Source: Flaccisagitta enflata
Taxonomy: Eukaryota
Reading direction: 5' to 3'
DNA: 64,000 nucleotides
NCBI GenBank assembly: GCA_965153355.1
Contig: OZ231126.1
Location: 20,832,001 to 20,896,000 of the forward strand
The stretch's first letter is position 1. Each line of letters opens with the position of its first letter. This document shows, one piece after another, positions 1-49,594 of this stretch. The position numbers and the translations under genes are program-made. The notes beneath the pieces are model-generated. The model was given only the letters and a program-made list of their open reading frames with translations, was not told the origin of the DNA and did no database searches.

Positions 1-294
<294 letters not shown>

Positions 295-311
295 AATGCC
301 CTGCGCTGTTA

Positions 312-487
312 CAGTTGAACCCCACACTAACGGACCCGCCAGCAACGGAATTACGCCTATGACAGATGCAAGGTCATGGTCCTTTCAACTTATTTTCTTT
401 AACTTTTCTTTGTTGGCAATAACAGAATTCTGCCAGCAACAAAAAAAATTTGTTTGTCCCTTGAAATCCGTTAGAGCGGGTTATCTG
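312..487. mobile_element. Tc1/mariner (pogo-like) MITE
   Basis: TA|CAGTTGAACCCCACACTAACGGA ... TCCGTTAGAGCGGGTTATCTG|TA; related copy at 62090-62250. Confidence 0.65.
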
Positions 488-1011
488 TAATTTCCTCTCG
501 AAACAAGTAACGGGGGGGGGGGGGGGGTTGCAATTTACCATTTTAAATGGGTGGGTCAACCAAAACCCCCTCGATCAAACATATATGCACCCGAACTCCC
601 GAAGCGTACTCACACTTTTTGACTCAAACATTACAGAGGGATGGACAATGCCTCTCATAACGTTGCCCGCTCGAAATTGAAAATACAGATTCATTCAAAA
701 ACAAGCGAACATGCCATGAGACAAATCAAGTTTTTAGATTTTTAGCGACTGAGAAAACTGAACGAGAGTTCTTCAACCACTTAAAAATAAAAACAGCCTG
801 TTAAAAGTAACAGTCTCGAGCTGCGGGAGGGCTTAATGGCCGCAAATAGAGCAATAACCTTAAGAAGACCCTTTCATTAAAACGTTATTTGGATATTTTA
901 CGGTCTACCAATGAAATTATATGATTCCTCCCATGAAAAAGATCGTTTTATTAATACCTAATGTTTCTTCTTTTTCTCCCTTTCTTTTCTTTCTTTTCGG
1001 TTCCGATGCAG

Positions 1012-1118
1012 CGGCGGCAGCGGCGGCGGCGGTGGCAGCGGCAGCATCGGCAAACACTCAGCCTAAGATCCCCGGGCAGCGGAAGAAAAGAGTCCCTTAC
1101 TCGAGATTTCAAATCAAA
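1012..1118 (+). CDS. Posterior (Abd-B class) Hox gene, internal exon: poly-Ala linker plus homeodomain residues 1-14 (QRKKRVPYSRFQIK)
   Basis: Pyrimidine tract and ...GATGCAG acceptor at 1010-1011 (exact acceptor is the least certain boundary). Encodes AAAAAAVAAAASANTQPKIPGQRKKRVPYSRFQIK. Donor AAA|GTAAGT at 1119. RKKR-x-PY is the posterior Hox N-terminal arm signature. Upstream exon(s) not identified in the window. Confidence 0.9.
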
Positions 1119-1813
1119 GTAAGTTTGCGGCCAAGCAAATTTGTGCGGAGGGCGGCGATGGTGGGGGGGAGGGGGGGAAAGGGAGGTGCTAGGCACAGTG
1201 GCGCAAGACTGGGGAAGAATCAAATAAGACAACGCTGAGACGATTGGCTAAAGAAGGGAACATCTGATGGGGAAGCCTGGACTAAAGGACTATGGTACGA
1301 TGGTGCAAGCCACAGGATGAACTGAACTTAGGTCTAGGCTCTATGAAGTCTGAGGAAGTCGATATTCCAAAGTCACGAACAGTCGCGTGCGGAATCCCGG
1401 AAAGTCAATAAGAAATGAGAAAAACTATTCCTTCATATACTCGGACCTGAAGACTTTTTTGATGTCTGCCGAAGAAAATAAAATATGTTGGATTCAGATA
1501 ATGAAAAACGAAACAAGTGGACCTCGTTTGAGCGCACCAGCTAATATGGCAGAATCGCTGACGCAATAAGCTATTTCAAAACTTAGTTCTGTTCTGATTT
1601 CTGATTTCTGCGTAAAAGTTTTTAAAAGAACCTTTGAAATAGGACCATGGGCGAAATTATAATAGCCTTAAAGCTCCATAGTCATATGTTGAATCAGAGT
1701 GGTGCAAAAACAAGAGGGAGTCGAAAAAAGGGGGGCGTACATGGAGGGTATTATTTCTGTTGGACTATCTAAATATTTTCCCTTCCCCTATTTTCTTCTT
1801 CGTCGTTTTGCAG

Positions 1814-1903
1814 GAACTTGAACGAGAATATTTGCGCAACACTTACATCACGCGGAAGAGGCGCTTGGAACTCGCCTACTTCCTCAGCCTCACAGAGCGA
1901 CAG
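1814..1903 (+). CDS. Posterior Hox gene, homeodomain residues 15-44 (ELEREYLRNTYITRKRRLELAYFLSLTERQ)
   Basis: TTTTGCAG acceptor, exactly 90 nt in phase 0, CAG|GTGAGC donor; helices 1-2 of a homeodomain. Confidence 0.95.
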
Positions 1904-2793
1904 GTGAGCGAGTTGCAACTCTCCAAGCTCTCAAACCTCAAGACAAACAACTTGTCTTATTCAAACAGACGCTCGGTGTGCAATTGTTCTGATGAATGGT
2001 TGAGAAAAAAAAAACACGAATGCGTTTTGTAGAAGTAGGCAGGTTATTTCTTGTTTTAATGATATCAGACATATCAGAAACGATACGTAGCTACTACTTT
2101 ACTTCTTATCAAACCAAAGAGAATTGATGCCGAATTGAGCTAAAGAAATAAAGAAAGATTTGAAAAGATACAAAGCGGGTGGCCAGAGTAAGAATAGTAT
2201 TAGGGCAGGAGCAGTAAGGCCAAAATCAAAAGAATAAAATGTGACCAAGCGACCGACCGATTGAAGGACGGAAAAAGCGTGGTGAAGAGTCGCGTAGCAC
2301 GCGACTAATAAATTGTGTGTGGTCGGTGGCAGATGCTGATGACAGGGGCGACCAAATCAGGGGACAGGTGAAAAGATTTTGATGATTTTTAGTTGCGGAT
2401 ACGCAACTCTGTAAGAGGCTTTGTCCGTCTATTGGTTCGTTGGTCCGTTGGTCCGTCCATCACGCTCGAGTTGAAAACGCGAAACGCATTTACGATGCTG
2501 CAGTTGTCATGTGTGTGTGTGTGGGTGTTAGTGTGTGGGAAGGGGGTTGGGGTGAGGCTGCGGGTTGGCTGCCCCTGCCCACCCGTCCGCAACGATATTG
2601 TGATTCCGCGTCACTTGTTTTTTCTCGTGGGTGATATTCTTGCATAAACATTAAAGAGGGCGCTGAAAGGCGGAAACAAATGAGTAATTGATCAAAAAGA
2701 CAGGTGAAGTTGACAGCAACAACATTAACAATAATGGAGGTTTAGATGAAGAGGGTTTACAAGAGGAGAAGGAAAAAGATTTATCGAGGGATG

Positions 2794-2870
<77 letters not shown>

Positions 2871-3170
2871 CCGATGAATGGTAATCGTTTATCGCCTACT
2901 TTGGCATTAATGGACAAAAAGTTGACTTTACTAAGTGGTGATAGGAAGAAAAATATGCCCGCAGGTGTATGACTGATGTGTGGTTTAGTGCGGGATTTAA
3001 GTGTGTGTCTTGGGGTAAGTGCTTGGGGGAGTATGGCTGTATGTGATTGTTGAGATTCATTTCCTTTGAGTGTCAGCGTATTTGAGCATAGCTATAGCTG
3101 CTCTGATAGATAAGTTTTCAACTAAAAAACTTCCCAGCTCATCATACCTTTTCCCTTTCCGTTGTTTCAG

Positions 3171-3260
3171 GTGAAAATATGGTTTCAAAATCGCCGAATG
3201 AAATCGAAACGACTTTTGGAGCGACAAAAGAAGGCGGCCGAATGGGGTGCCCCCGAATGA
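3171..3260 (+). CDS. Posterior Hox gene, last coding exon: helix 3 and C-terminus (VKIWFQNRRMKSKRLLERQKKAAEWGAPE*)
   Basis: TTGTTTCAG acceptor; WFQNRRMK recognition helix in frame with the previous exon; TGA at 3258-3260. Missed by the ORF track. Confidence 0.95.
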   Translation: MKIWFQNRRMKSKRLLERQKKAAEWGAPE

Positions 3261-3452
3261 CTACTGTGAAGGGAGGAGGATATCGTCAAACAAAAACAAA
3301 AGACAAAAAAGAAAAACAAGGCGGACGGACAAATCGTTGTGAACGGACCTGTTCACCAGACGGAGGGACGGACAGGTCACAAGATGGCGGCAAAACGGTC
3401 AGCCAAATGCGTGCCATATATGAACAGAAACTTGTGACTGAAACAATCTACT

Positions 3453-3458
3453 AATAAA
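3453..3458 (+). promoter_or_regulatory. Candidate polyadenylation signal for the Hox gene
   Basis: First AATAAA about 190 nt after the stop codon; the true 3' end could lie further downstream. Confidence 0.3.
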
Positions 3459-4125
3459 CGTCGACTCGCTCGTTTGATGTCGCCAGTCACCACCCCGTCC
3501 ATTGATTGTCCTTCGTCCTTCGCAAACAAAAAGTCTTCCTCCCTTCTTCTCTCGATCAAGAGGAAGAGAATTACTTGAAAAAAAAACGTTAACAAGAAAG
3601 AGAGAGAAAATACAAGTCAAGAATATCTCCGCTAAAGCTGTGCAAAAAACTTCACTTACCAAATACTTCTCTTCGAATGGGACCTTGTGGGGTTTGAAAA
3701 CAGTCGCAATTTCCCCCCCCCCCCTCTCTCCAGCCCCCTAGTGCCCCTAGCCCTTCCCATCCCCTTCACTCCATTAATCCCTTCATCCCATCGTCTTAAT
3801 CTATTTCTCAAAAAAGTTGTTGGTTTTTTTTTTGGTAACAAGGTGAACCCGTTCCCCCACCTCGCAGCCGCCGACTTAAGTTAAGAGTCAAAAAACAAAA
3901 TGCAACATTAAAAATTGAAAATTGAAAATGCAAGAAGTAAAAAACGATTGTGAAACGGTGTCGTCCTTTGTCTTCATCTTCTTACCTTTTTGTCATTAAT
4001 ATTACATTTCTTTTTTTTTCTTTTCAAAAACAAATCTTTGGCCATCATTTATGTAATAACAATAATCATCACAGTCAAGTTGTTCTTTTCCTCTCCATTG
4101 CGCCATTTATCTTTTTAAACAATTG

Positions 4126-4211
<86 letters not shown>

Positions 4212-4690
4212 TCCATCTATGATTGACATCACCACATGATTTGACATATGCGACGTATGATAGGTGTAACATTATAGACTGAAGTATCTTGACAGACGGA
4301 AGCCGAGGGCTGGGTTATGATAATATTTGAAGCCAATCTAGTTAAATCCGTGTATGTCTGTAAAACTGACAATATACGATAGAAAATGACGCTATTTAAA
4401 TCTCCATAAAATCATTAAGTAACGGGACTAAATTGCTGTTCCCTAAAAAGATATCTTTTTCCCGACGTCCAACTTACTATATGATAAATGTGCCACACTT
4501 TATGCCATAACCAAAGAGGACTTGACATATTCATGATAAAGTTAACAATGACAGAAAACCGAAAAACGATGTTTAAGGATCGATTTGAGAGCTCTATTTG
4601 AAATTGATTACTATTTATACTCGCCAATATTTTTTTCCTCATTGTCATTGACGTCGTCGCTTTCATCGTCAACTTCATCATCAACTTTAC

Positions 4691-4691
<1 letters not shown>

Positions 4692-4738
<47 letters not shown>

Positions 4739-4751
4739 TATCATTATCATT

Positions 4752-4798
<47 letters not shown>

Positions 4799-4903
4799 GG
4801 TAATCATCATCATCATCATCATTGTCATTTGTTTCGGCATCGTTGCTGTTATCGTCATTGTCATCGTTTCATCATCATCATTGTTATCATCATCATCATT
4901 CTT

Positions 4904-4999
<96 letters not shown>

Positions 5000-5282
5000 G
5001 TCATGATCATCATGGTGATTGAACATTGACGCTCGAAAACTTCTCTACAATACTTTTTTTCTTTTCTTCATTACTATGATTTTATTGCTTATTGGGGATT
5101 GTACCATGTACAATTCGAAACTGCATTAATCATTTTCGTGGTTATTCTCAATTACAAATACTGTTGTGCAAAAAAATGCGTCTTGATTTTCGATCAAAGT
5201 AGGGTTTGTATTATAGTCACGTCGCGCAAAATTGCAAAATACCTCTCTTTGGGCAGCGGGCAAACGTCGTCGTCGTCGTCGG

Positions 5283-5376
<94 letters not shown>

Positions 5377-5377
5377 G
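4692..5377. repeat. (CAT)n at 4692-5015 and (GTT)n at 5283-5377
   Basis: Direct reading; explains the poly-D/M/H/I/S/V/L/C ORFs. Confidence 0.98.
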
Positions 5378-5518
5378 CTGTTTTTCAAGGAATCATCGTT
5401 TGGGCTGCTCCGCGGCGTCTTTTTGTCTCAGACTCCTGAAATGTTGTCCCAGATTCCTGAAATGTTGTCCTATGGTCACTCTCCAAACTAGCTGCCTATA
5501 GTTACTGGTATTCACCAG

Positions 5519-5774
5519 AACAAGGCCGGATACGCGGCCACCCCAGTCGCGTGCGGGTGGGCAGGGGCCATAATTGAGGTCAGTGGAGCATTTGGGCAGG
5601 AGCAGTAAGGCCAAAAACCCCATTAACGCCAAAAAAGTAAAGTGTGACGGACGGACCGACGGACCGACGGACAGACGGACAGACGGACAGACGGACAGAC
5701 GGACCGACGGACCGACGGACCGACGGACGGACCGACAAAGCGGGGTGTAGAGTCGCGTAGCACGCGACTAAAAA
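5519..5774 (+). mobile_element. Helentron/DINE-1-like non-autonomous element, family A (representative copy)
   Basis: AACAAGGCCGGATAC..AGTCGCGTGC head, (GACG/GACA/GACC)n microsatellite, terminal hairpin AGTCGCGTAGCACGCGACT, A-run end. Related copies at ~2170-2308, 2386-2620, 7278-7489, 13605-13739, 23118-23257, 40608-40829, 40837-41042, 58352-58545, 58690-58865, 59293-59459 and 63083-63300. Confidence 0.75.
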
Positions 5775-6469
5775 CTTTTCCTTGAGCCCTATTGCAAGAC
5801 TTCGCTATTGTTTGGATTTCAAAAACCAGGTTTGTCTCATCTAGTTTTTGGTTTCTTGGTGTTGCCCAATTTTCATAAAAGAGAAGTTATTTTCCAAAGG
5901 TCTTTTTTAAAAAAGATGATTTACTTATTTTATTTTCCTAAGGTCTTTATTTAAAGTGTTTTTTTTCTTTTTTTTCTTTTCTTTAGGTCTTTTTTAAGTA
6001 ATACCCGATAGTGAGCGTGTTGGTGTTAATGTCAGATCGTTGTCACTGTCATCGACTTATCATCGTTGTCACAGTCGTCGGTGTATTGGAAGTTTGTCAA
6101 ACGTGGTCGCTAGTGATCGACAATTGCAGCAGCAGCGTTGAACTTTGACGGAATTCCTCTCGTCATCAAAAACGCGAAATTAGAGCACGGCAATACGGGC
6201 TCGCAGTGCCTCAGACTCATCCAGTCACGACATCAAGGACTCGTTACGCCACAAAACGGAACCACGTTTAGACAGCGCCATCTCAGATTGGTGTCGTCTT
6301 TTTCCAAATCATGACATTCAAACCGCCACTTACGCTGTGGAAGTCACTGGCGTACCCTGATGGCATCAAGACATTCATCAGCGATATAATCATGTGCTCT
6401 ATAAGTCTTTTTATCAATAATCACGGTCAAGAAGACGAGAAGAAAAAGCTGTTTTGTGTGGCCTCTTGG

Positions 6470-6868: not shown

Positions 6869-9769
6869 GATTTGCCTATTTTGATGTTCCATTGATCTTT
6901 TGTCAATGTTTTCGTCATGCGTTTATCAATAGAAGTTTGTTTATGTCAAATGTCAATGTCGGTAGTTTGATTTCAATTTCAGATAGATTCTGCCGTTGTT
7001 GTTGTTGTTGTTGTTGTTGTTGTTGCCACTTGGTAGGAGTGGAAGTTTTCCATACTTTTGTACAGTAAGGGGCGTTCTGCCTGCCAACGCAGTTCAGGGC
7101 TGCAGAAAATTTTTAGCTTCCTACAAGCAAAATTTTTCTAGCCGTACCTTCCTACTGAAAATATGTGTGATTCTTGGGATGATATATAACCCTTAGTACA
7201 CAAATTAAAGAATCAAAGCCTGATACACAGCAACCCAGTCACAGTTAGATTTTTTATGTTTAACTGAAAATGATAAAAACAAGGCCGGATACACGGCCAC
7301 CCCAGTTGCGTGCGGGTGGGTAGGGGCTGTGATTGAGGTCACCAGATCATTTGGGCAGGAGCAGTGAAGCCAAAAATCCCAAAAACCCAAAAAAAGTAAA
7401 ATGTGACGGACGGACCGACGGACGGACCAATGGACGGACGGACGGACCAACTAAGCGGGGTGTAGAGTTGCGTAGCACGCAACTAAAAAGACTCTTTCAT
7501 GCAAGGGAATTAGATAGCTCTTTTTTTTCCCTAAAATGGTTATCCACGCATGTTTTTTCATCTTTTATCTCCATCTCATTCTCTCCCCAATATCGTCCCT
7601 TCCTTCTTTTCTTACATTTTTTCCCTTTTTCTTTTTTTTTTCTCTTTTCCTTTTCCTTTTTTTTTTCTTTTTTTGTTTTTTTTTGTTTTTGGTTTTTCTT
7701 TTCCTCTTTTTTTCCTTTCCCTCTTCTTTTCCTCCCCTTTCCTTCCTACTGGCCATCCTTGCTTCCTACGAGCGCCGCTCGCATGCTCAGCTACTTTTTG
7801 CTGCCCTGACGCAGTTACGCAGATCCACCATTTGAGGCGCCCCTGTTCGGATCCATTGTTACCCTCCCTTCCTCCCTTCCAACCCTCCCCTCTAGCTAGC
7901 TGTTTTTACTGGATTCACCAGGCAACCCCTCCAAGAGCCCGATTTCATGGTTGAGAATTCCAACCTCCGTTGAAAAGACTCGCCCAATGCAGTCGTCGTT
8001 GTCGTCGTCGTTGTCGTCGTCGTTGTCGTCGTCGTCATCGTCGTCATCAGCCGTCTGTGTGTTGGTGGTTTGGTTTCACTGTCAGATGGTGTGTGTCATC
8101 ATCGTCATCATCGTCGTCGTCATCGTCGTCGTCATCAGTCGTCTGTGTGTTGGTGGTTTGGTCTCAATGTCAGATGGTGTGTGTGGTCTCATTTGAGTGA
8201 TTGAGGCCTCGTCTCTTCTCTCCGGCGACACTTTTAAATTTCTACCTGATCGTAAAATTCGAGTTTGAAACGGAAAATTCCCGGCTCCCAGGACAGACAG
8301 AGAATTGAGAGTCAGATAGAAATCGGAATGTAAGAGATGAATCTTGAAAACAGTTTGAAATAACTATGGCAAAAAAAAAAGCGAACAGTTACTTCTTTTG
8401 CTTATAAATCCTTTGAAAATTCACCCAGTGTGCTGAAATTTTTACTGGAGTTACTTTTTGGTAACGGGTCCCTATGAAAAACGTTTCCTCTTCAATGATT
8501 GAAATTGTTTGCTATGAAGCAGACATAGCCATCAAAATGGTACCAATAGATAGAGCTCGACTTGCCCAACATTTTGATGTAAGATTTTTGACTTTTTTAT
8601 TGTTGACATCCCAGTAAATCAAAATAAACAACCCTCCCTATGTAAATTTTCAGCAAAAATCGGGACAAAAGAGCCATATACCTGTTAAGTGCTGCCTCTG
8701 TGATATTGGGGTAAACTATTTTATGAAGTACTGCTATGTAAAAACAAAAGGCTTCCTACTTGTAGGAGATGGGAAGCAGCTGGAAAGGAGTTCATTGATG
8801 AGGAGGAAGATGTTTTGGAAATTCAAATCTCAGAGACCAAACTTGTAACAGTCTAGTCTCAGACTAGTCTCAGTCTTTGGTTCAATGCCAGAGGAAGGAA
8901 AGCCAAGCAATGCCAAGTCAAGCCAGTCCAGATGAAGCTAAGCTAGACCCCAAAAGCCACACAGACTTACTTATGCCAAGCCAAGCCAAGCCAAGCCAAG
9001 CCAAGCCAAGCCAAGCCAAGACAAGCCAAGCTTAACCAGAGCAAATCTAGCAACTTAATTTTTCTGATGCATAGCCAAGCCCTTCCAAGACACACAAGTT
9101 CTCTTTATTTTCAAATTCTCAATTTTTTTATTGGAAAAATCATTCATCAGTTTTTTTTATTTTAGAAGTTTATCATTCTCTTCTAACTTTGAATACTCTT
9201 TGATTTGGACTGTAAATTTTCACCCTTTTGATGGAAACAACCAGTATAAGGAGTGAAATTGGAAAAATCATATTGTTTGAATTTAAGACCCTGGGCAAGC
9301 AACACAAATTTCATCATTTGCTGAAAATTACCTCAACTCAAAGACAAGTATATGCTGTCGTTTCATCTTGCCATAAATAGGTATAGAATAATATTTTCTA
9401 AAAATTTTTCCTCTTAAAAAAAGATAAATATTTCAAGGACTTTCATTACAGTGAGCTAATCAACTGACAACAATATGCAAATTAGATGTGTAAGTGAAAT
9501 AGAGACAGCTAAAAAACTTACAACTCAAAAGTCTGGGATTTGATTAATACAAGGCCGGAAACATTGGTTTGAAATTTTAGTTCTTTTCCGCCTTCCTGCC
9601 CACCCAGCATTGACTGGAGGAGAATATATGGAATGATCTGATGATCACTCTGAGTATTGTTGCCCTCCGATCATGTGACAAAGTCATTTTGTAAGGGTAA
9701 ATGTACTTATGTTGAGATTTAAAACCAATACTCATTTTTAAGACATTAAGAAGCCAAATCAATACCCAC

Positions 9770-12700
9770 AAAATAGTGGTTAAGTTATAGAGTGGTTCTA
9801 AGGCGTTGCTGTTACCAAAAGATGGACTTCACTGTTGAACTTATGGACCAAAGATATACGAGAGACCCATGCAACTGAAAAAAACACATTCAGGACATTT
9901 TCGTAGGTCACTGTAAAGCTGCAATATGCAAATGAGATTGACAGTGACCCTTCTAAATCTTTCATACTGTTTGAGCTTCATAATATGTTGAAAAATGGAG
10001 TGAAAGCCCAATGGATAGTCCTCTCTCACGTTTTATTAAATGCCAGCCAAATTTCTTGTGAATCAATGGGAGTCAAGGGCATCAACTCGTTAATAAAAGT
10101 TTTTGATTGGAAGAACATCATTAACATGACATATTCTTTTAAATACCATAATTATTGAAGGCTAGCAGAATCATGAGATAACAGTAAATGAACTTGACTG
10201 TTAGACTTATGGACCAATGATCTACAAACGACTAATTCACTACACCTGAAAAAAAAGACATTCAGGAAATTTGTTTTGGTCACTATAGAGCGGCAAAATG
10301 CAAATGAGATTGACAGTGTCCCTTCTCAGTCTTTCATACTGTTAAAGCTGTGTGATAGGTTGAAAAAAAGGGTGGAAGACAAAAGCATGGTCCTCCATCT
10401 CTTATTGCGCACTGATAACTGGCAAGATTGCTAGTGAGTCAAAAGGTGTAGAAGGCGCAGATTGGTTTCTACAGTTGTCTAACAGGAGGAAGTACCTCCA
10501 AGGAACAAAGTTTATCAATCAGTGAGTGCTACAATTTCTCAATGTTGGCAACAGTGATTGTCATTTTTTTGGCCTTTATAAGACTGTTAGGAGCAAAATG
10601 AATTCAAATAAGACTGGTCCAATCACGAAATGATTCTTTAGTCATTGCAGATAAACTGACATGGACTTGACTGTTAGACTAATCGACCAATGATGTACTA
10701 GAGACCTGAAAACCTGAACCTGAAAAAAAGACTTTCGGGAAGTTTTTCTAAGGTCACAGTAAAGCTGCAATATGCAAATGAGATTGGCAATGTCCCTTCT
10801 CAGTCATTCGTACTGCTTTAGCTGCATAAGAGGTAGAAAAAAATGGTAGAAGACACATGGATGGTTTTCTGTCCATTGGTACTCCTTTGAAACCAGCCAA
10901 GTTGATCAAGAGTCAATGGTTACTAGTTTGTAACGGCGTCAGAACGGAAATTTAATAAAAACAGAACATCTGAATATGATATCAAAATTTGTCGAGGAGA
11001 GCAATGAAAAGCTTTTCTTAGATTGTAAGGAGCAATATGGATTCCAATATGATAGTTGGCAAATTATGGTATGGCTCCAAGGCATTGCAGTTATAAACAG
11101 ATGGACATGACTATTAGACTCATGGACAATGATCTATAAAAGAACAATCATTGCATCTCAAAAAAATCTCATTCAGGCAGTTTTTAAGGTCACAATAGAG
11201 CTGCAACATGCAAATTAAATTGAGTGTCTGTTTTAGCTGCATTATAGGTATGAATAGTCGCAAAAGGGTTTGATGGTCAGCAGTACTTGTGCCCTGCCCA
11301 AGTAGGTTGTGATTGAAGTTGAGGGCGGGAGCAGGGCAGCGGCCCCAAAGGGCTTGATGACCTGTGCTTTCACTCATGTGGGGAATTTTCTCCTTCTCTT
11401 TCAAGACTTTGGGATTTGGGTCTTTGGACTGAGATTTGGGTGGCAAGGCTGGATTTCGGCCTTCAAGGCTGAATTTGGGCCTTCAAGGCTGGAATTTGGT
11501 CCTCAAGGCTGGGATTTGGGCCCTGAGGATAGGACCTGGGCCTCAATATTGGGATTCTGACATTGAGAAACAAAAAATCTTGGCTTCTGTGTAAAGACAC
11601 GGAGGATCAACCCCCTTAGAGCAATTGTCCAAAAAAGGGGTAGATAGGTGCATTGGGAGCCGACCAACCTGTAAGAAAAGACCATGGTTGAACATAAATC
11701 TCAATAGAGGGTTGAATATTTAATGACTTTTATGATTTTCAAAGAATCAAATAGTTTTTTAATAGTTTGTTAGACTGTAAAGAGCAAAATGAATTCCGAT
11801 ATGACATTGATCAAATCCTGGAATGGCTCTAGGGCATTGCAAATATCAATAAATGGACTTGATTGCTAGACTGATGGATTAATGATCTATTAAGGCCGAC
11901 CTATGCACCTGAAATAAATGACATTCAGGAAGTTTTACTAAGGTCACTAAAGAGCTGCAATATGCAAATAAGATTGAGTTTCCCTTCTTAGTCTTTTGTA
12001 CTGTTTTGGCCACATAATCATTGAAACAGGTCGCCCAAGGGCAATATGTGGTCAGCAATACCCGTTGCCCTGCTTTGAATGATTGTGAAATGGATTGCGG
12101 GGAAGCAGGGCAGCGGCCCCGAAGGGGACGAAGTCCTGTAGAACACAGGGGGACTTTCGTTCGTCCTACCTGAAGAAGTTGATGAGATGCTATAGAGAGC
12201 TGACTGAAGGTATTCAAGAGCCTAAACTGAGGTTTAAGAAGGCTGATTTAAGGCTTGAGAATGCCGATTGGAAGCTTTAGAGAGCTGACTTGAAGCTTGA
12301 GAGAGCTGGATTAAGGCTTGAAAGGCCAGAGGACTGATTTGAAGCCTGAGAGCAATAAATTGAGGTTTAGATGGCTGATTTGAGGCCTGAGAGGCCTAAT
12401 TTGAGGTATAAGAGGCCAGGTTTGAGGCCTGAGAATTTGGATTTGAGGCCTGAGAGGCCAGATTTGAGGCCTGAGAGGCCAGATTTGAGGCCTGAGAGGC
12501 CAAATTTAAGGCCTGAGAGGCCAGTTTTGAGGCCTGAGAGGCCAAATTTGAGGCCCGAAAGGCCAGATTTTAGGCCTGAGAGGCTGGATTTGAGGTCTGA
12601 GGGGTCTGATGAGGGGGGGGACTAACGAACGGACGAACGGACAAACGGACAAACGGACGGACGAACGAAAGTCCCCCTGTGTTCTACAGGACTTCGTCCC

Positions 12701-15100
12701 CTTCGGGGCCGCTGCCCAAAAAGGGGTAGGAGACAAATGGATGGTTCTCTCCCCCTCCCTCTAATTTTCAGATACAATTTGCCAGATTGCTTTTACTACA
12801 TGTCATAATTATTGAAGGTCAGCAAGGACGGAAGTTTTTTCTTTGGTGTCTGTAAGGCTGTTAACAGAGAAACAAATTTCAAAATGAAAATGATAAAAAA
12901 CTTTGGAATGACTCTTAGGCATTGCTAAAATCAAGAGATGGACTAGTGTATTAGTTAGACTAATATACCAATGATCAACCAGAGACCAATCAATGCCCCT
13001 GCAACCAATGATCTACCAGAGACCAATCAATACCCCTGCAAAAATTGACATTCAGGAAGTATTTATTAGGTCACTAAAGAGCTGCAATATGCAAATGAGA
13101 TTGACAGAGTCCCTACTGAAGGTTTTAGCTGCATAAAAAGTTGAAAATAAGGGTGGAAGACAACTGGATGGATCACCTCCTGTAAGTCTCTTAAAACCCA
13201 AACAGATTGCTCTTGACTCGTGAGTCAATCAGTGTGACAGGTTTTGACAGATCTAAGGGGAAGGTTGCCACTTATTTTTCATCTTCTTGCACATGCCAAG
13301 AGTTTGTGAAGTATACAACCATGATTGAATTTTTAGGTCTTTTTAAGACTGTAAAGAGCAAAATGAATTCAAATACAATAGTGATCCAATTATGGTATTG
13401 CTCTAATGCATTGCAGATTCCAAGAAATGGACTGGACTGTTAGACTAATGGACTAATGATCTACAAAATACCGATTTATGCACCTGAAAAAAATGAAATT
13501 CAGGAAGTTTGTGTTTAGATTACTATAGAGCTGCAATATGCAAATAAGATTGACAGTGTCCATCCTCAGTGTTTCATACTGTTTAAGCTGCTAAGTAGGT
13601 TGAAAACAAGGCCGGATACACAGCTACCTTAGTCGGGTGGGCAGGGGCGGCAAAAAAAGCTAAGCGTGACGGACGGACCAACCAACGGACCAACAGATGG
13701 ACAAAGCGGGTTGCAGAGTCGCGTGCAAGCGACTAAAAAGGGTGGTAAACAAGTAGACAGTTCTCTACCCCTTGATTCTCACTAAAAACTGGCCCAATGG
13801 CTTGTGAATCAACAGATGTAAAGTGCATAGATTGGCTTGTAAGGATAACTGGAGAGAAGAACTAAGCTAAACTAACACTTTTTCAAAAATGCCAAACTTT
13901 CTATGTTTTCCAAAGGTGAATGAGTTTTTTAGGTGTTTGTTAGATTGTAAGGGGCAAAATGAATACCAATATGATAATAGTCAAGGCTTTAGGGCTTTGC
14001 AGATATCTAGTAATGGACTTGGCTGATAGACCTATGCACCTGAGAATAAAAGGACATTAGGCAGTTTATTAAAGGTCACTGTAGAGCTGCAATATGCAAA
14101 TCAGAATGACAAAGTCCCTTCTCAGTCTTTCATACTGTTTTGGCTGCATATTAGGTTGAAACAAGTCATTGGATTTCACATGGTCAGCAGTACCCGATGC
14201 CTTGCTCGGAGTGATCAAGTGAAGAAGTAGAGCAATTATGCATTCACTTGCAGATATCAAGAAATGGACTTGACGGTTGGACTTATAGAAATATTAGAGA
14301 CCAATCAGGCCCCTGAAAAAATTGACATTCAGTATGTTTTTTTAGGTCACTGTAGAGCTGCAATATGCAAATGAGATTGAGTGACCCTTCTCAGTCTTTT
14401 GTACTATGTTAGCTGCATAATGCGTTTAGTAAAGGGCTGGAAGGCAAATGAACAGTGCTCTATCTCCTTATTCTATCCCTTTATTCAACTAGCCAGATTG
14501 CTTGTGAGTCAATGGGTGTAAAGGGCGAAGACTGGTATATTTGGTTGTCTAAAGGGAAGAACTAAGTAAACTCTTCCAGAAATGACAGTATTATTCAAGG
14601 TTTCTGAAAAGAGTATTGTTTGCTTTCTTTTTGGGCTTTGTTAGACTGTAAGGAGCAAAATAAATTCCAAAATGATAGTGGACCAATTATGGAATGACTC
14701 TTAAGGGTTGCAGATATCAAGAGATGGACTTGATTGTTAGACTAATGAACCAATGATCTACAAGAGACCCATCCATGCCTTAAAAACAGAACATTCAGGA
14801 AGTTTTTTTTCAAGATCACTATAGAGCTGCAATATGCAAATGAGATTGTCTCTTCTAAGTCTTTTCAGGTGTCCCTAAGCACCTTTATAACTGGCTGTGT
14901 CAGTTGGTTGGTCGGTTAGTCTGTCTGTTGGTCGGTAATGCATTTGTTCGATGATCCACATGGCACACCCTATTGGCCCACATGGCCTTGTTTACTGCTT
15001 TAGCTCTATCAAAGGTCGGTAAAACGGGTGGAAGACAAATAGATGGTTCTCATTTGAAACAGGCAAGGTTGCTCATGAATAAACAGGTGAAAAGTGTATT
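9770..15100 (+). repeat. Tandem array of about ten diverged ~300-500 bp subrepeats
   Basis: ATGGACTTGACTGTTAGACT...GAGCTGCAATATGCAAATGAGATTG recurs at ~9821, 10187, 10661, 11101, 11853, 12938, 13426, 14013, 14264 and 14724; spacing is lengthened by HINE insertions. Confidence 0.85.
12024..12722 (+). mobile_element. HINE-like family B (representative copy) with 21-bp central array
   Basis: Perfect 59-bp inverted repeat at 12108-12166 / 12659-12717, central (TGAGGCCTGAGAGGCCAGATT)n, GACG/GAAC microsatellite. Related copies at ~11255-11636, 18063-18580, 22140-22335, 22915-23115, 33727-34026, 34800-35200, 35240-35920, 41808-42304, 53998-54140 and 54914-55583. Confidence 0.75.
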
Positions 15101-16565: not shown

Positions 16566-18720
16566 GTGTTTTTTCAAGTCTCTTCATGTTTTTTTTTCTC
16601 TTTGTCTCTTCATTCCTTTTATGTCTCTTCATGTCTTCTCATGTCTCTTCACATCGCCTCATGTCTTTTTATGTCCCTTCATGTCTTTTTATGTATTTTC
16701 ATGTCCTCTCATCTCTCTTCATGTCTCCTCATATCTCTTTATGTCTTTAAATGTCTCCTCATGCCTCTTCATGTCTTTTCATGTCTCTTCATGTCTTCTA
16801 TTGTCTCTCCATGTCTCATGACCCCTCATGTCTTTTTATGTCTCTTCATGTCTCCTCATTTTTCTTCATGCCCCTCTTGTCTTTTCATGTCTTTTTTTTC
16901 TGTTTATGTATCCCCATTTCTCTCCATGTCCTTTTATGTCTCTTCATGTCTCCTCATGTCTCCTCATGTCTCTTCATGTCTCTATATCTCTTCATGTCTT
17001 TTCATGTCTCTCTGTGTCTTTTTATGTCTTTTCATGTCTTTTCATGTGTGCTTATGTCTCTTTATATGTTTTTATGTCTCTTCATGTCTCCTCATTTTTT
17101 TTCATGTCCTTTCCTGTCTCCTTATGTATTTTCATGTATATTCATGTCTCTTCATGTCTCTTCATGTTTTTTAAAGTCTCATCAGGTTTTTTTTGTCTCT
17201 TAATGTCTCTTCATGCCTTTTTGTGTCTCTTCATGTCTTCTCATGTCTCTTCATCTTTCTTCATGTTGCCTCATGTCTTTTCATGTCTTTTCATGTCTCC
17301 CCATGTCAGACAAGAAGAGACATGAAGAGACATGAATAAAGAGGAAGAGACATGAAAAGACATGAGGGGACATGAAGAGACATAAAGAGACATAAAAAGA
17401 CAGGAAAAGATATGAAAAGACAAGAAAAGACATGAAAAGACATGAAAAGACATAAATGGAAATGAAAAGACATAAAGAGACATGTGGAGACATGAAGAAA
17501 CAAGAAAAGATATGAAAAGACATGAGGAGACATAAAGAGAGACATTAAAAGACAGGAAACATGAAAAGACATGGAAAGACATGAGGAGACATGAATTGAC
17601 CTGAGGAGACATGAAAAGACATGAGGAGACATGAAGTGACATGAGACAACATAAAGAGACGTGGAAAGACATGAAGACACATGAAAAAAACGCAAAGACA
17701 TGAGGAGACATGAGGAGAAATGAGGAAACATGAAAAGCGTAAGGAGACATGAAAAGACATGTAGAGATATGGAGAGATATGAAGAGACATGACGAGACAT
17801 GATGAGAAATAAGGAGACATGAAAAGACATGAAGAGACATGAAAAGACATCAGGAGACATGAAAACACATGAGCAGACATGAGAAGACATGAAAAAACAT
17901 GTAAAGACAAAAAAACACATGAAGAGACATGAATAAACATGAAGAGAGAGGAAAAGACGTCAGGAGAGGTGAAAAGACATAAACAGACATAAAAAGACAT
18001 TAGGATACAGGAAAAGACATTAAAAGAAATGAGGAGACATTAAGTCACTTGAAGAGACAAGAAACTAGTCATGAAAAGACATGAAGAGCAGCGAGATGCC
18101 GCTGGGAGATAATTCAGTGAGGAGATGAGAGCAGTGTCAGGGCAGGGCCGATGTCTGTAGCAGGGGGAATTTCCAGACGTCCTGAGGGGGCATATTTCAG
18201 GCCTTCAATGACTAATTAAGGCCACTGAAGGTATATTTGAAGGCTGGAGGGCAGAATTAAGGCTTGGAGAGCAGATTTGAGGTTTTGAGGGCAAATTTGA
18301 GCCACAGTCGGCTGGTTTGATGCTTTAGAGGCTAATTGAAGGTCTGGAGGGCAGATTTGAGGTCTGGTGGGGGATTTGAGGCTGAGGGGGCTGATTATAA
18401 GCCTAGATGGCTGATTTGAGGCCTCGAAGACTAAATTGAGGGCTGGGAGGGCAGATTTGAGGTCTTGATGGCCAACTGGGGGGGGGGGGACGGAAGGACG
18501 GACGGACGGACGGACGGACGTCTGGAAATTCCCCCCTGTGTTCTACAGGACATCGGCCCTTTGGGGCCGCTGCCCAAAAAGACATGAAAAGACATGAAGA
18601 GACAGAAAGAGACATAAAAAGACATGAGGAGATACAAAAAGACATGAGGAGACATGAAGAGACATGAAAAGACATACCAAGACATTAAGAGACATTAGGG
18701 GACATGAAGAGACATGAAAG
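16566..18720. repeat. 10-bp satellite (CATGTCTCTT)n that reverses orientation at 17308
   Basis: CATGTCTYYT units from 16566 to 17307, then AAGAGACATG units from 17309 to 18720, interrupted by a HINE at 18063-18580. Source of the many MSLHVSSCLF ORFs. Confidence 0.95.
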
Positions 18721-22016: not shown

Positions 22017-23379
22017 TACTCTCACAAACTACTCTATGGCCTTTACACATATTGGCACTCTAGCAATCTGGCCGCTTTTAATTGAGAATTAAAAGATAGA
22101 GAACCATCTAACTGTCTTCCACCCCCAAATCAGCACTCTAGTCCTCAAATCCGCCTTCGGTGACCTAAACCAGTCATCTGAGGCCCCTTAAGGATGTCTG
22201 AAAATTCACCCCTGTGTCCTACAGGACATCGGCCCTTTGGGGCCCCTGCCCTGCTCTCAATCCACTTCTTCACCTGATCACTCCAAGCAGGGCAGCGGGT
22301 ACCGCTGACCATGTGTGATCCTTGGATGACTAGTTTCAACCTATTATGTAGCCAAAATAGTATGAAAGACTGAGAAGGGACTGTGTCATTCTGATTTGCA
22401 TATTGCAGCTCTTTAGTGACCTTAGATAAACTTCCTGAATGTCCATTTTTTCAGGTGCATGGGTTGATCTTAAGTAAATCATTAGTCCATTGGTCTAACA
22501 GTCAAGTCCATTTCTTGAAATCTGCAACGCCTAAGAGCCATTCCATAATTTGACTATTATCCTACTGGAATTCAGTTTGCTCCTTACAGTCTAGACCCAA
22601 TCTTATTTGCATATTGCAGCTCTACAGTTACCTAGAAAAAACTTCCTGAATGTCATTTTTTTCAGGTGCATGAATCGGTATTTTATAGATCATAAGTCCA
22701 TCAGTCTAACAGCAAGTCCATTTCTTGATATATGCAATGCCTTAGAGCAATTCCATAATTTACCACTATTGTATTTGAACTCATTTTGCTCCTTACGGAC
22801 TAAAAATGTATTTTCAATGAATATCATAGGTTATCACACCTCTTCCTTCAAGATGTTACTTTAACCATTTCTTATCCTCCAGGCTGGCCAATTCCCTTTG
22901 CACCTACTGATCCTTGTTTGGACAGCGGCCCTGAAGGGGTTGATGCCCTTACACAGTAGTGGGATTTTTTTTCTTTTCTCTTGTCCCTCCCCCTGACTCA
23001 ATCCCAGTCTCAAGGCCCAGATCCCAGCACAGATCCCAGCCTTGAGGACCAAATTCTAGCCTTGAAGGCCTCATAATCATCCTTGGAGGCTCAATTCTCA
23101 GCTTAAAGGCCCTAATCAACAAGGCTGGATACACGGCCACCAGTTGCGGAAGGGTGGGCAGGGGCGGAAATGCGCGTTTTCCCACTTTTTGATTTGATCA
23201 TTACGGACCAACAGACGGACCAAGCCTCTTATAGAATTGCATGTTCGCAACTAAAAAGGGTAAATGGAGAGGGACGAACCGACCAACCAACCCTCATAGC
23301 AGGGTGTAAAGTTGCGAGACTGTTTTGAATTAAAGGCCAAAGTTGTATAAAGCAAGTAGTATCAATTTTTTTTTCTTTT

Positions 23380-35920: not shown

Positions 35921-38900
35921 TGAGGTCCATTGATTGGAGAAGATTATGGCTGAGGGGGGACCTTGCGGTATTTCCCTGCAGGGTCCAGGGATTGGAGAAG
36001 ATTGTGGCTAATGGGGGACCTTGCAGTATGTCCCCGTGGGGTCCAGGGATTGGAAAAGATTGTGTCTGTTGGGGGAACTTGCAGTATTTCCCTGCAGGGT
36101 CCAGGGATTGGCGAAGATTGTGGCTGATGGGGGACCTTGCAGTATTTCTGTGCAGAGTCCAGGGATTGGAGAAGATTGTGGCTGAGGGCGGACCTTGCAG
36201 TATTTCCCTGCAAGGTCCAGGGAATGGAGAAGATTGTGGCTGGTGGGGGACCTTGCAGTATTTCCCTGTGGGGTCCAGGGATTGGAGAAGATTGTGGCTG
36301 AGGGGGGACCTTGCAGTATTTCCCTGCGGGGTCCAGGGATTGGAGAAGATTATGGCTGAGGGGGGACCTTGCAGAATTTCCCTGCAGGGTCCGGGGATTG
36401 GAGAAAATTGTGGCTGATGGGAGACCTTGCAGTATTTCCCTGCAGGGTCCAGGGATAGGAGAAGATTGTGGCTGATGGGGAACCTAGCAGTATTTCCCTG
36501 CGAGGTCCAGGGATTGGAGAAGATTATGGCTGATGGGGGACCTTGCAGTATTTCTCTGCGAGGTCCAGGGATTGGAGAAGATTGTGGCTGAGGGGGGACC
36601 TTGCAGTATTTCCCTGCAGGGTCCAGGGATTGAAGAAGATTGTAGCTGAGGGGGGACATTGCAGTATTTCCCTTTAGGGTCCAGGGATTGGAGAAGATTG
36701 TGTCTGATGGGGGAACTTGCAGTATTTCCCTGCAGGGTCCAGGGATTGGAGAAGATTGTGGCTGATGGGGGACCTTGCAGTATTTCCCTGCAGAGTCCAG
36801 GGATTGGAGAAGATTGTGGCTGAGGGGGGATTTTGCAGTATTTCCCCGCGAGGTCCAGGGATTGGAGAAGATTGTGTCTGTTGGGGGAACTTGCAGTATT
36901 TCCCTGCAGGGTCCAGGGATTGGCGAAGATTGTGGCTGATGGGGACCTTGCAGTATTTCTGTGCAGAGTCCAGGGTTTGGAGAAGATTGTGGTTGAGGAG
37001 GGACCTTGCAGTATTTCCCTGCAAGGTCCAGGGAATGGAGAAGATTGTGGCTGGTGGGGGACCATGCAGTATTTCCCTGTGGGGTCCAGGGATTGGAGAA
37101 GATGGTGGCTGAGGGGGGACCTTGCAGTATTTCCCTGCGGGGTCCAGGGATTGGCGCAGATTATGGCTGAGGGGGGACCTTGCAGAAATTCCCTGCAGGG
37201 TCCGGGGATTGGAGAAAATTGTGGCTGATTGGAGACCTTGCAGTATTTCCCTGCAGGGTCCAGGGATAGAAGAAGATTGTGGCTGATGGGGAACCTAGCA
37301 GTATTTCCCTGCTAGGTCCAGGGATTGGAGAAGATTATGGCTGATGGGGGACCTTGCAGTATTTCTCTGTGAGGTCCAGGGATTGGAGAAGATTGTGGCT
37401 GAGGGGGGACCTTGCAGAATTTCCCTGCAGGGTCCAGGGATTGAAGAAGATTGTAGCTGAGGGGGGACGTTGCTGTATTTCCCTTTAGGATCCAAGGATT
37501 GGAGAAGATTGTGTCTGATGGGGGAACTTGCAGTATTTCCCTGCAGGGTCCAGGGATTGGAGAAAATTGTGGCTGATGGGGGACCTTGCAGTATTTCCAT
37601 GCAGAGTCCAGGGACTGGAGAAGTTTGTGGCTGAGGGGGGACCATGCAGTATTTCCCTGCGAGGTCCAGGGATTGGAGAAGATTGTAGCTGATGGGGGAC
37701 CTTGCAGTATTTCCCTGCGGGGTCCAGGGATTGGAGAAAATTGGGGCTGATGGGGGACCTTGCAGTATTTCCCTGCGAGGTCCAGGGATTGGAGAAGATT
37801 GTGGCTGATGAGGGACCTTGCAGTATTTCCCTGTGAGGTCCAGGGATTGGTGAAGATCATGGCTGATTGCGGACCTTGCAGTTTTTCCCAAAGAGGTCCA
37901 GGGATTGGAGAAGATTGTGGCTGAGGGGGGACCTTGTAGTATTTCCCTGCAGGTCCGGGATTGAGGAAGATTGTAGCTGAGGGTGGACCTTGCAGTATTG
38001 ACCTTTAGGGTCCAGGGATTGGAGAAGATTGTGGCTGATGGGGGACCTTGAAGTATTTCCCTGCATGGTCCAGAGACTGGAGAAGATTGTGGTGGAGGGG
38101 GGACCTTGCAGTATTTCACTGCAGGGTCCAGCGATTGAATAAGATTGTGGCTGATGGGGGACCTTGCAGTATTTCTCATGAGTCAAAATAAGTGAGATAC
38201 AGCTATTTCCCTGCAGGGTCCAGGGATAGGAGAAGATTGTGGTTGATGGGGAACCTAGCGGTATTTTCCTGCAAGGTCCACGGATTGGAGAAGATTATGG
38301 CTGATGGGGGACCTTGCAGTATTTCTCTGAGAGGTACAGGGATTGGAGAAGATTGTGGCTGAGGGGGGACCTTTCAGTATTTCCCTGCAGGGTCCAGGGA
38401 TTGAAGAAGATTGTAGCTGAGGGGGGACATTGCAGTATTACCCTTTAGGGTCCAGGGACTGCAGAAGATTGTGTCTGATGGGGGACCTTGCAGTATTTCC
38501 CCGCAGGGTCCAGGGATTGGAGAAGATTATGGCTGATGGGGGACCTTGCAGTATTTCCATGCAGAGTCCAGGGATTGGAGAAGATTGTGGCTGAGGGGGG
38601 ATTTTGCAGTATTTCCCCGCGAGGTCCAGGGATTGGAGAAGATTGTGGCTGATGGGGGACCTTGCAGTATTTCCCTGCGGGGTCCAGGGATTGGAGAAGA
38701 TTGTGGCTGATGGGGGACCTTGCAGTATTTCCCTGTGAGGTCCAGGGATTGGAGAAGATTGTGGCTGATGGGGGACCTTGCAGTATTTCCCTGCGAGGTC
38801 CAGGGATTGGTGAAGATCATGGCTGATTGGGGACCTTGCAGTTTTTCCCAACGAGGTGCAGGGATTGGAGAAGATTGTGGCTGAGGGGGAACCTTGCAGT

Positions 38901-39140
38901 ATTTCCCTGCAGGGTCCAGGGATTGAGGAAGATTGTAGCTAAGGGTGGACCTTGCAGTATTTCCCTTTAGGGTCCAGGGATTGAAGAAGATTGTGGCTGA
39001 TGGGGGACCTTGAAGTATTTCCCTGCATGGTCCAGAGACTGGAGAAGATTGTGGTGGAGGGGGGACCTTGCAGTATTTCACTGCAGGGTCCAGCGATTGA
39101 AAAAGATTGTGGCTGATGGGGGACCTTGCAGTATTTCTCA
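35921..39140 (+). repeat. 58-bp satellite, about 55 copies, with higher-order blocks
   Basis: Unit GGGTCCAGGGATTGGAGAAGATTGTGGCTGATGGGGGACCTTGCAGTATTTCCCTGCA; register shifts by 2 nt per 60-nt line. Confidence 0.97.
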
Positions 39141-48315: not shown

Positions 48316-48358
48316 CTGCCGTGATTTTCAATATACAAATGAGAGGGAAAAGGATATA

Positions 48359-49372: not shown

Positions 49373-49582
<210 letters not shown>

Positions 49583-49594
49583 TAATGCTCCAAC

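What the first reader, a model, noticed from the sequence alone, without database searches (positions are those of the whole stretch)
1012..3260. Divergent posterior Hox gene with a homeobox split by two introns
Seen: three exons with canonical splice sites join in frame to QRKKRVPYSRFQIK|ELEREYLRNTYITRKRRLELAYFLSLTERQ|VKIWFQNRRMKSKRLL, with introns after homeodomain codons 14 and 44. Known: RKKR-x-PY marks Abd-B/PG9-14/Post genes, and a codon 44/45 intron occurs in several ANTP-class genes such as Drosophila Abd-B and chordate Hox14. Inference: the mix of Hox13-like RKKRVPY and KELEREY, Post1-like ELEREY..NTYIT, and an unusual LELAYFL helix 2 matches no ortholog group I can assign. The extra 14/15 intron would hide the gene from genomic degenerate-PCR and ORF scans, so it may be an unrecognised or lineage-specific posterior Hox.
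Basis: partly seen in the sequence, partly recalled or inferred. Interest (0 to 1): 0.8.

Follow-up and report, generated by a model that had tools for sequence, protein, structure and literature searches.

The report
Arrow-worm posterior Hox gene, split homeobox
This is a real posterior Hox gene of an arrow worm (chaetognath), matching a gene described in 2025 in Spadella cephaloptera, so the gene itself is not new, though its homeobox being cut by two introns appears not to have been reported.

Summary
Three + strand exons (1012-1118, 1814-1903, 3171-3260) with GT/AG borders join in frame to one complete 60-residue homeodomain, the only one in the 64 kb.

The gene is not an unrecognised Hox group. 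Probe arms published for the Spadella cephaloptera transcript listed as Sce-postD (PMC12852818, supplement file 2) match all three exons. Three arms match by the DNA search with 1, 2 and 3 mismatches in 25 bases and 0 hits expected by chance. By eye, all ten homeobox-region arms tile the spliced sequence without indels. They show about 80 identical residues and 43 of 250 base differences, none changing a residue.

So the window comes from a chaetognath, and the gene is the orthologue of a chaetognath-specific posterior Hox gene. One naming conflict remains: the paper's diagnostic residues fit postC, while its probe table says postD.

The two phase-0 introns, after homeodomain codons 14 and 44, are supported by this cross-species mRNA match. 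Direct RNA-seq mapping could not be run, because the single read-laying run was lost. Unnamed relatives in ENA assemblies appear to share the 44/45 intron but not the 14/15 one.

Interest is modest.

The parts
1..1011 (+). 3' end of the intron upstream of the homeobox exon. It is rich in microsatellites, with a pyrimidine tract and CAG acceptor at about 985-1011. The 5' coding exon(s) lie outside the window.
   Evidence: The Spadella probe set continues upstream with at least 20 more pairs. Four short motifs read from the first upstream pair are not encoded anywhere in the window.
1012..1118 (+). Exon with 22 pre-homeodomain codons (an Ala run, then ...PKIPGQ) and homeodomain codons 1-14 (RKKRVPY N-terminal arm).
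   Evidence: A Spadella probe arm matches 1094-1118 on the - strand with 1 mismatch and ends exactly at the last exon base.
1119..1813 (+). Intron A, 695 bases, phase 0, between homeodomain codons 14 and 15. GTAAGT donor, pyrimidine tract plus CAG acceptor.
   Evidence: No repeat copy of it elsewhere in the window. The Spadella probe tiling is collinear across this junction (read by eye).
1814..1903 (+). Exon with homeodomain codons 15-44 (helix 1, helix 2 and the start of helix 3).
   Evidence: A Spadella probe arm matches 1872-1896 on the - strand with 2 mismatches.
1904..3170 (+). Intron B, 1267 bases, phase 0, between homeodomain codons 44 and 45. It holds a (GA)n run and a copy of a dispersed repeat at about 2196-2622.
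   Evidence: One Spadella probe arm spans the Q44/V45 join in the mRNA (read by eye).
3171..3260 (+). Last coding exon: homeodomain codons 45-60 (WFQNRR recognition helix), a 13-residue tail and the TGA stop.
   Evidence: A Spadella probe arm matches 3221-3245 on the - strand with 3 mismatches.
3453..3458 (+). First AATAAA after the stop codon; candidate polyadenylation signal (inferred only).

Best explanation
The window holds the 3' part (last three coding exons) of a functional posterior-class Hox gene of a chaetognath. It is the orthologue of the Spadella cephaloptera transcript that the 2025 Spadella Hox paper lists as Sce-postD in its probe table. That gene is one of the chaetognath-specific pair postC/postD, which the paper places near Post1/Hox11-13.

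The pre-mRNA is spliced at two phase-0 introns inside the homeobox, after codons 14 and 44. A third intron lies 22 codons upstream of the homeodomain.

The product is inferred to be a sequence-specific DNA-binding transcription factor. It has a posterior-type N-terminal arm (RKKRVPY) and a standard Antp-class recognition helix (WFQNRR, Q50). By analogy with the Spadella expression data, it would pattern the posterior nerve cord, hindgut and post-anal tail.

Shown here: the exons, the splice signals, the homeodomain, and the match to the Spadella transcript. Inferred: expression and splicing in this species, DNA binding, and the developmental role.
For: 1. Exon and intron anatomy, and a single homeodomain in the window.

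2. One search printed the HCR probe list of PMC12852818. Three arms of the set under 'Sce-postD' were typed into the DNA search. Each hits one exon once, on the antisense strand, with 1, 2 and 3 mismatches of 25 and 0 hits expected by chance. All 6 of those mismatches are third-codon-position, synonymous changes.

3. Read by eye, not computed: the first 5 probe pairs (10 arms, 250 bases) tile the spliced window sequence with constant 2-base and 3-base gaps and no indel. They run from the Ala run before the homeodomain to the tail after it. One arm spans Q44/V45. The spacer across K14/E15 is exactly one codon. About 80 residues are identical. Of 43 base differences in 250, 41 fall in codons that are fully or partly read and none changes a residue; the other 2 fall in the codon split by the upstream intron.

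4. The flanks outside the homeodomain are also identical. That is not expected between phyla, so the source is a chaetognath.

5. The residues K3, R18 and Y20 are those the paper reports for this gene pair.

6. In a 42-row homeodomain tree the gene sits with three unnamed ENA relatives and Hox12/13-type rows (support 92/90), next to Abd-B (93/88). It is separated from central and anterior Hox rows by a 100/99 branch.

7. A relative with an uninterrupted homeodomain in one ORF (P0013/P0024/P0026, 45/60 identical) aligns to the joined exons without gaps.
Against: - No reads from this organism were laid, so the junctions and expression in this species are untested.
- Seven of the ten probe arms were compared by eye only.
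- There is a naming conflict. The paper's text says V21 is found only in postD and Y20 in postC. The window gene has Y20 and L21, which fits the text's postC, whereas the probe table puts the matching probes under Sce-postD. The figure that would settle this is a PDF that could not be read.
- The tree has no starred support for any clade holding the gene. It also lacks Post1, Post2, Hox11, Cdx and named chaetognath sequences.
- The 5' exons and the neighbouring Hox genes are outside the window, so cluster membership is not shown. There is 1 homeobox in 64 kb.
Confidence: 0.88

Rival explanations
1. Same gene, but its correct published name is postC rather than postD. That would mean the probe-table label and the diagnostic residues in the text refer to swapped genes.
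For: The text of PMC12852818 and of the preprint says K3 and R18 occur in both genes, V21 only in postD, and Y20 in postC. The window gene and the probe-derived Spadella sequence have Y20 and L21. The unnamed relative P0013 has F20 and V21, which fits the text's postD.
Against: The probe table lists the matching probe set (internal name 'sce_hox11') under Sce-postD. None of the 60 arms listed under Sce-postC was seen by eye to encode homeodomain sequence, so that set could not be compared.
Confidence: 0.4
2. An unrecognised, new posterior Hox orthology group.
For: No named protein is close. The best named homeodomain is 41/60 identical. Two word-index searches with exon 2 found nothing. A full-text search for five sequence motifs found 0 papers.
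Against: Published probes against a described Spadella transcript match all three exons. The gene pair is described.
Confidence: 0.04
3. A pseudogene or a decaying duplicate that is no longer spliced or translated.
For: Only the 3' part is in the window. No RNA data from this organism were seen. Chaetognaths have many tandem Hox duplicates.
Against: The frame is intact across three exons and all five splice signals are canonical. By eye, 0 residue-changing differences against about 41 silent ones relative to Spadella. All 6 mismatches in the three computed arms are silent.
Confidence: 0.04
4. A MedPost gene, the central/posterior chimera of chaetognaths and rotifers.
For: Exon 2 alone scores best against Antp/Ubx (30.8 and 30.0 bits), above Hox9 (about 27), Abd-B (24.9) and Hox13 (at most 20.7). 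Positions 27-31 read TRKRR, as in central genes. K3, R18 and Y20 also occur in chaetognath MedPost.
Against: The defining Q6 and E59 are V6 and L59 here, and A14 and V21 are K14 and L21. The N-terminal arm is of the RKKR-x-PY type. The matching Spadella probes are a different set from the sce_medpost set in the same table.
Confidence: 0.02

Closest known systems
Sce-postD / Sce-postC of Spadella cephaloptera (PMC12852818, Commun Biol 2025; preprint 10.1101/2025.01.31.635887)
   Same: By eye, protein identity is complete over every probed stretch of the homeodomain and both flanks (about 80 residues), and three arms were confirmed by search. The K3, R18 and Y20 residues match.
   Different: It is a different species: about 17% of the compared bases differ, all silently. 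The genomic structure of the Spadella gene is not given in the texts I could search ('intron' occurs 0 times in PMC12852818). The paper says postD was not recovered from other chaetognath data sets.
Posterior Hox genes of Paraspadella gotoi (5 genes in a 2.4 Mb cluster; PMC12460157)
   Same: Same phylum and same expanded posterior class. Their wide spacing and interspersed non-Hox genes fit a 60 kb stretch here with no second homeobox and a TXNDC5-like gene.
   Different: One-to-one orthology and shared introns are therefore untested.
Unnamed ENA-assembly proteins P0013/P0024/P0026 and P0016/P0025/P0018
   Same: Identity is 45/60 and 34-35/45.
   Different: They are paralogue-level relatives, not the same gene. 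P0016/P0025/P0018 read straight through positions 1-44 and lose homeodomain similarity right after Q44. This suggests the 44/45 intron is present and the 14/15 intron absent.
Abd-B, vertebrate Hox9-13, lophotrochozoan Post1/Post2
   Same: Posterior-type N-terminal arm and overall class. The ESM Atlas puts the relative P0024 nearest a 'Post2 family' cluster at 0.94, which is a lead only. An intron at 44/45 is recalled, not checked here, for Drosophila Abd-B and labial and for chordate Hox14.
   Different: Identity is only 31-41/60. Positions 27-31 are central-like. No Post1 or Post2 sequence was available to compare. I recall no intron at 14/15 for any Hox gene, and the literature searches did not address this.
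MedPost (chaetognaths, rotifers; PMC5431905)
   Same: A mixture of central-like (TRKRR) and posterior-like (K3, R18, Y20) residues.
   Different: It lacks Q6 and E59, and has the full posterior RKKR-x-PY arm.

Membership tests
Homeodomain (Pfam PF00046), ANTP class | Significant match to the profile; W48, F49, N51 and R53 in helix 3 | tested here: met
   Exon 2 ORF scores E 4.8e-7 and 29.9 bits against a cut-off of 22.9. WFQNRR is in exon 3.
Posterior-class Hox | Posterior residues in the N-terminal arm and helix 1 (K3; RKKR-x-PY arm; R18/Y20 as listed in PMC5431905 and PMC12852818) | tested here: met
   K3, P7, Y8, R18 and Y20 are present. V21 and A14 are absent.
Posterior-class Hox | Groups with posterior rather than central or anterior genes in a homeodomain tree | tested here: inconclusive
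   The gene groups with Hox12/13-type rows and next to Abd-B (92/90 and 93/88, neither starred). Central and anterior rows are cut off by a 100/99 branch. The tree has 42 hand-picked rows and 60 columns, with no Post1, Post2, Cdx or named chaetognath rows.
Posterior-class Hox | Lies in a Hox cluster | not testable with these tools
   There is only 1 homeobox in the 64 kb and no genome is held.
Chaetognath postC/postD pair | Sequence identity to the Spadella transcript | tested here: met
   3 of 3 typed probe arms hit exons 1-3 with 1-3 mismatches. All 10 arms examined are identical at protein level by eye.
Sce-postD as defined in the paper's text | V at homeodomain position 21 | tested here: not met
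   Position 21 is L. The text says V21 is found only in postD. This conflicts with the probe-table label.
Sce-postC as defined in the paper's text | K3, R18, Y20 and no V21 | tested here: met
   All four hold. However, the probe set labelled postC could not be compared, since none of its arms was seen to cover the homeobox.
MedPost | Q6, LTR(R/K)RR at 26-31, and E59, together with K3 and Y20 | tested here: not met
   V6 and L59; positions 26-31 read ITRKRR (5 of 6); K3 and Y20 are present.
Lophotrochozoan Post1 | A14, R18, V21 and Y20 signature; grouping with Post1 sequences | tested here: inconclusive
   R18 and Y20 are present, A14 and V21 are not. No Post1 sequence was obtained.
Vertebrate Hox13 | High homeodomain identity | tested here: not met
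   31/60 to the Hox13-type homeodomain of P0027, against 41/60 to Hox9. Exon 2 scores 20.7 bits or less against HOXB13 and HOXA13, against 27 for HOXC9.

The most novel reading that the evidence does not exclude
The intron after homeodomain codon 14 is a gain specific to this one chaetognath posterior Hox paralogue. It would have arisen after the tandem duplications that made the postA-D set, because the closest paralogue-level relatives appear to keep the 44/45 intron but lack it. Together with a homeodomain and flanks that are unchanged between a planktonic species and benthic Spadella, this would give a rare, datable intron gain inside a Hox homeobox. It would also show that the 'Spadella-only' gene is an old, strongly constrained member of the chaetognath cluster.
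Probability: 0.4. Interest if true: 0.4.

Novelty: new member of a known kind. Interest (0 to 1): 0.3.

Why it matters
Chaetognaths have the largest Hox set known among protostomes. Their extra posterior genes are linked in the literature to the post-anal tail.

The 2025 Spadella paper could not find postD in other chaetognath data sets. If the probe-table label is right, this window shows the gene in a second species, with its protein unchanged over the homeodomain and flanks. It also gives the first exon-intron structure I could find for it.

A homeobox cut into pieces of 14, 30 and 16 codons escapes ORF-based and word-based searches. My own database searches with single exons found nothing.

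Beyond that the finding is an orthologue of a described gene, not a new kind of Hox gene.

Tried and rejected
**RNA evidence**
- No reads were laid. 'No RNA support' is therefore not a finding.
- Four metatranscriptome runs hold 6-8% of the sampled words of window 1-6000.

**Genome**
- No genome is held for this window.

**Database searches with exon 2**
- 'Longer' proteins: 63 candidates, none at E <= 0.01.
- 'Near' lengths: no candidate shares three words.
- JGI metagenome scans with exon 2 and with P0013: none confirmed out of 594 and 166 pattern matches.

**Other searches that led nowhere**
- In alignment A1, MAFFT misplaced exon 3, so A1 was not used for any search.
- Exon 1 against PDB gave only 2 chance hits, neither a homeodomain.
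- Rfam at gathering threshold gave 0 matches in the window.
- Earlier findings of the scan returned nothing in three look-ups.

**Literature**
- Five sequence motifs gave 0 papers.
- Searches on intron positions gave nothing relevant to Hox position 14/15.
The P. gotoi Hox sequences and the Spadella alignment figure (a PDF) were not seen.

**Ideas considered and dropped**
- A start at the in-frame ATG at 921. This was rejected because that stretch is the pyrimidine tract of an acceptor, and the Spadella mRNA continues upstream with more than 1 kb of probed sequence.
- An introner-like origin of intron A. No copy of it occurs elsewhere in the window.
Full report
**1. The observation**

Reading 900-3400 and translating by coordinates confirms three + strand coding stretches:
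- 1014-1118: 22 residues, then homeodomain (HD) positions 1-14.
- 1814-1903: HD 15-44.
- 3171-3260: HD 45-60, a 13-residue tail and TGA.

Bases 1012-1013 finish a codon begun upstream. Every border is canonical. The donors are AAA|GTAAGT and CAG|GTGAGC. The three acceptors are pyrimidine tracts ending in CAG. Both in-homeobox introns (695 and 1267 bases) are phase 0.

A six-frame scan finds a single WFQNRR-type motif in the 64 kb.

For Pfam I generated 569 stop-to-stop frames of at least 50 residues. Of these, 420 passed a complexity filter, and the 150 longest were scanned. The frame around exon 2 hits Homeodomain at E 4.8e-7. The only other family above its cut-off is Thioredoxin, on the - strand at 48170-48394.

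The first 1011 bases are microsatellites and AT-rich sequence. The 5' coding exon(s) therefore lie outside the window.

**2. What it resembles**

Exon 2 alone scores best against Antp and Ubx (30.8 and 30.0 bits). Hox-C9/A9 score about 27, Abd-B 24.9 and HOXB13 at most 20.7. The N-terminal arm in exon 1 is of the posterior RKKR-x-PY type.

Word-index searches with exon 2 found nothing. A full HMMER pass over 1.84 billion representatives with the 30-residue exon gave 23 proteins at E <= 0.001. Most are fused multi-homeobox models. Three single-domain hits stand out, all unnamed and from short ENA contigs: P0013 (79% identical over the exon), P0016 (77%) and P0018 (73%).

Over the whole HD, with the exons joined by coordinates in a script:
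- P0013/P0024/P0026: 45/60 identical.
- P0016 and P0025: 35/45. P0018: 34/45.
- The best named protein (a fish Hox-A9a): 41/60.
- Abd-B: 38-39/60.
- A Hox12-type HD: 39/60.
- Hox-D8: 38/60.
- A Hox13-type HD: 31/60.

A search with P0024 returned 2376 proteins at E <= 0.001 among 2465 candidates, with the best 120 listed. No named close relative appears. After the same-gene rows at 283-318 bits come fused multi-homeobox models at 113-132 bits. Ordinary Hox9, Abd-B and acoel PostHox rows follow at 93 bits or less.

**3. Identification**

The mixture of central-like and posterior-like residues led me to the chaetognath Hox literature. The Spadella cephaloptera paper (PMC12852818) describes two new posterior genes, postC and postD, with K3 and R18. 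Its supplement file 2 lists HCR probes.

The first five pairs of the set under 'Sce-postD' (internal name sce_hox11) were reverse-complemented and translated by eye. They reproduce the window's spliced product from the Ala run before the HD through to ...AAEW after it. Examples of the stretches read are PYSRFQIK, LEREYLRN, YITRKRRL and RQKKAAEW.

The arms tile the spliced window sequence with 2-base gaps within pairs and 3-base gaps between pairs, and with no indel. One arm spans Q44/V45. The spacer across K14/E15 is exactly the first codon of exon 2.

I count 43 differences in 250 bases. Of these, 41 lie in codons that are fully or partly read and none changes a residue. The other 2 lie in the codon split by the upstream intron.

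Each hits the window once, antisense to the gene:
- 1094-1118, 1 mismatch; the hit ends on the last base of exon 1.
- 1872-1896, 2 mismatches.
- 3221-3245, 3 mismatches.

None of 100 shuffles gave any hit. All six mismatches are silent third-position changes.

Because the non-homeodomain flanks are also identical, the window must come from a chaetognath. The silent divergence shows it is a species other than the one the probes were designed on.

The run index is consistent with this. Two runs of 'organism A' hold 64% and 43% of the sampled words of window 1-6000, and two marine-metagenome runs of one study hold 35% and 25%.

**4. The name**

The text says V21 occurs only in postD and Y20 in postC. 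The window gene has Y20 and L21, which fits the text's postC. P0013 has F20 and V21, which fits the text's postD. The probe table nevertheless lists the matching probes under Sce-postD.

I therefore call the gene the orthologue of one member of the postC/postD pair, postD by the table.

**5. Class placement**

I built a 60-column tree of 42 rows:
- the window HD;
- 39 distinct reference HDs, taken from 29 of the 40 proteins I hand-picked among the 142 held (the other 11 gave no new HD);
- two partial relatives.

Most of the near-identical vertebrate Hox9 rows were left out. The tree puts the gene with P0013, P0016/P0018 and Hox12/13-type rows (92/90), next to Abd-B (93/88). Central and anterior genes sit behind a 100/99 branch. 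No starred clade holds the gene, and Post1, Post2, Cdx and named chaetognath rows were unavailable.

This agrees loosely with the paper's placement near Post1/Hox11-13. MedPost membership fails on Q6 and E59.

**6. The introns**

P0016, P0025 and P0018 are ORFs on contigs of 555-1250 bases. They run uninterrupted through HD 1-44 and then lose all homeodomain similarity immediately after Q44. The read-through starts with V, that is GTN, as expected of a donor.

I infer that these paralogue-level relatives have the 44/45 intron but not the 14/15 intron. Their DNA could not be fetched.

Intron B holds a copy of a repeat dispersed through the window. Intron A has no copy elsewhere in the window.

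That 44/45 is a recurrent ANTP-class intron site, and that 14/15 is not known for Hox genes, is recalled rather than checked. My literature searches did not settle it. 'Intron' occurs 0 times in PMC12852818 and 3 times, unrelated to Hox, in PMC12460157.

**7. How it most likely works**

Shown: an intact, spliceable 3' gene part encoding a complete homeodomain, under strong purifying selection relative to Spadella.

Inferred: the product is a sequence-specific transcription factor of the posterior Hox class. In Spadella the two genes of this pair are expressed around the blastopore, then in the posterior ventral nerve cord, the hindgut and the post-anal tail including the caudal fin. The same role is the best guess here.

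**8. Context**

No second homeobox lies in the 60 kb downstream. The only other recognisable gene is TXNDC5-like, on the - strand. One exon scores 130 bits against human TXNDC5. This fits the very large chaetognath Hox cluster reported for P. gotoi, which spans 2.4 Mb and holds 14 Hox genes and 15 interspersed non-Hox genes. It does not prove linkage.

**9. Verdict**

It is the orthologue of a chaetognath-specific posterior Hox gene published in 2025, so the claim of an unrecognised Hox group fails.

Two things remain possibly new. One is the two-intron split of the homeobox, with the 14/15 intron apparently absent from the nearest paralogues. The other is the presence of this gene outside Spadella.

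Noticed in passing
window 35924-39137: A 58-base satellite of about 55 copies in two adjoining arrays, 86% matches. It stays open in several frames and gives ORFs of up to 429 residues on the - strand that are not genes.
   Followed up: no
window 16573-18088: Two arrays with a 10-base period meet head to head at 17307/17308. They are (TTCATGTCTC)n for about 75 copies, then its reverse complement (AGACATGAAG)n for about 78 copies. Together they form a minisatellite palindrome of about 1.5 kb.
   Followed up: no
window 48170-48394 and 49581-49784, - strand: Exons of a thioredoxin-domain gene. The best PDB match is human TXNDC5 at 130 bits, and one exon carries a WCGHC active site. A perfect (CA)103 run at 49375-49580 abuts that exon.
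   Followed up: partly
window 2196-2622, 5587-5777, 7349-7489, 13663-13739, 23203-23257, 40603-40973, 59289-59409: A dispersed repeat family, 68-93% identical over 30-141 bases. One copy lies inside intron B of the Hox gene.
   Followed up: no
window 12377-12601, 55069-55471, 56179-56354: Three separate arrays of a related 21-base unit (GATTTGAGGCCTGAGAGGCCA-like).
   Followed up: no
PMC12852818, text against supplement file 2: The text assigns V21 to postD and Y20 to postC. The probes listed under Sce-postD encode Y20/L21. Either the table label or the text may have the two names swapped.
   Followed up: partly
proteins P0013/P0024/P0026 and P0016/P0025/P0018 (ENA assemblies): These are unnamed relatives with 75-78% homeodomain identity, probably other chaetognath posterior Hox paralogues. 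P0013-type ORFs carry an uninterrupted homeodomain, so they may come from spliced transcripts. P0016-type ORFs read into an intron after Q44.
   Followed up: partly
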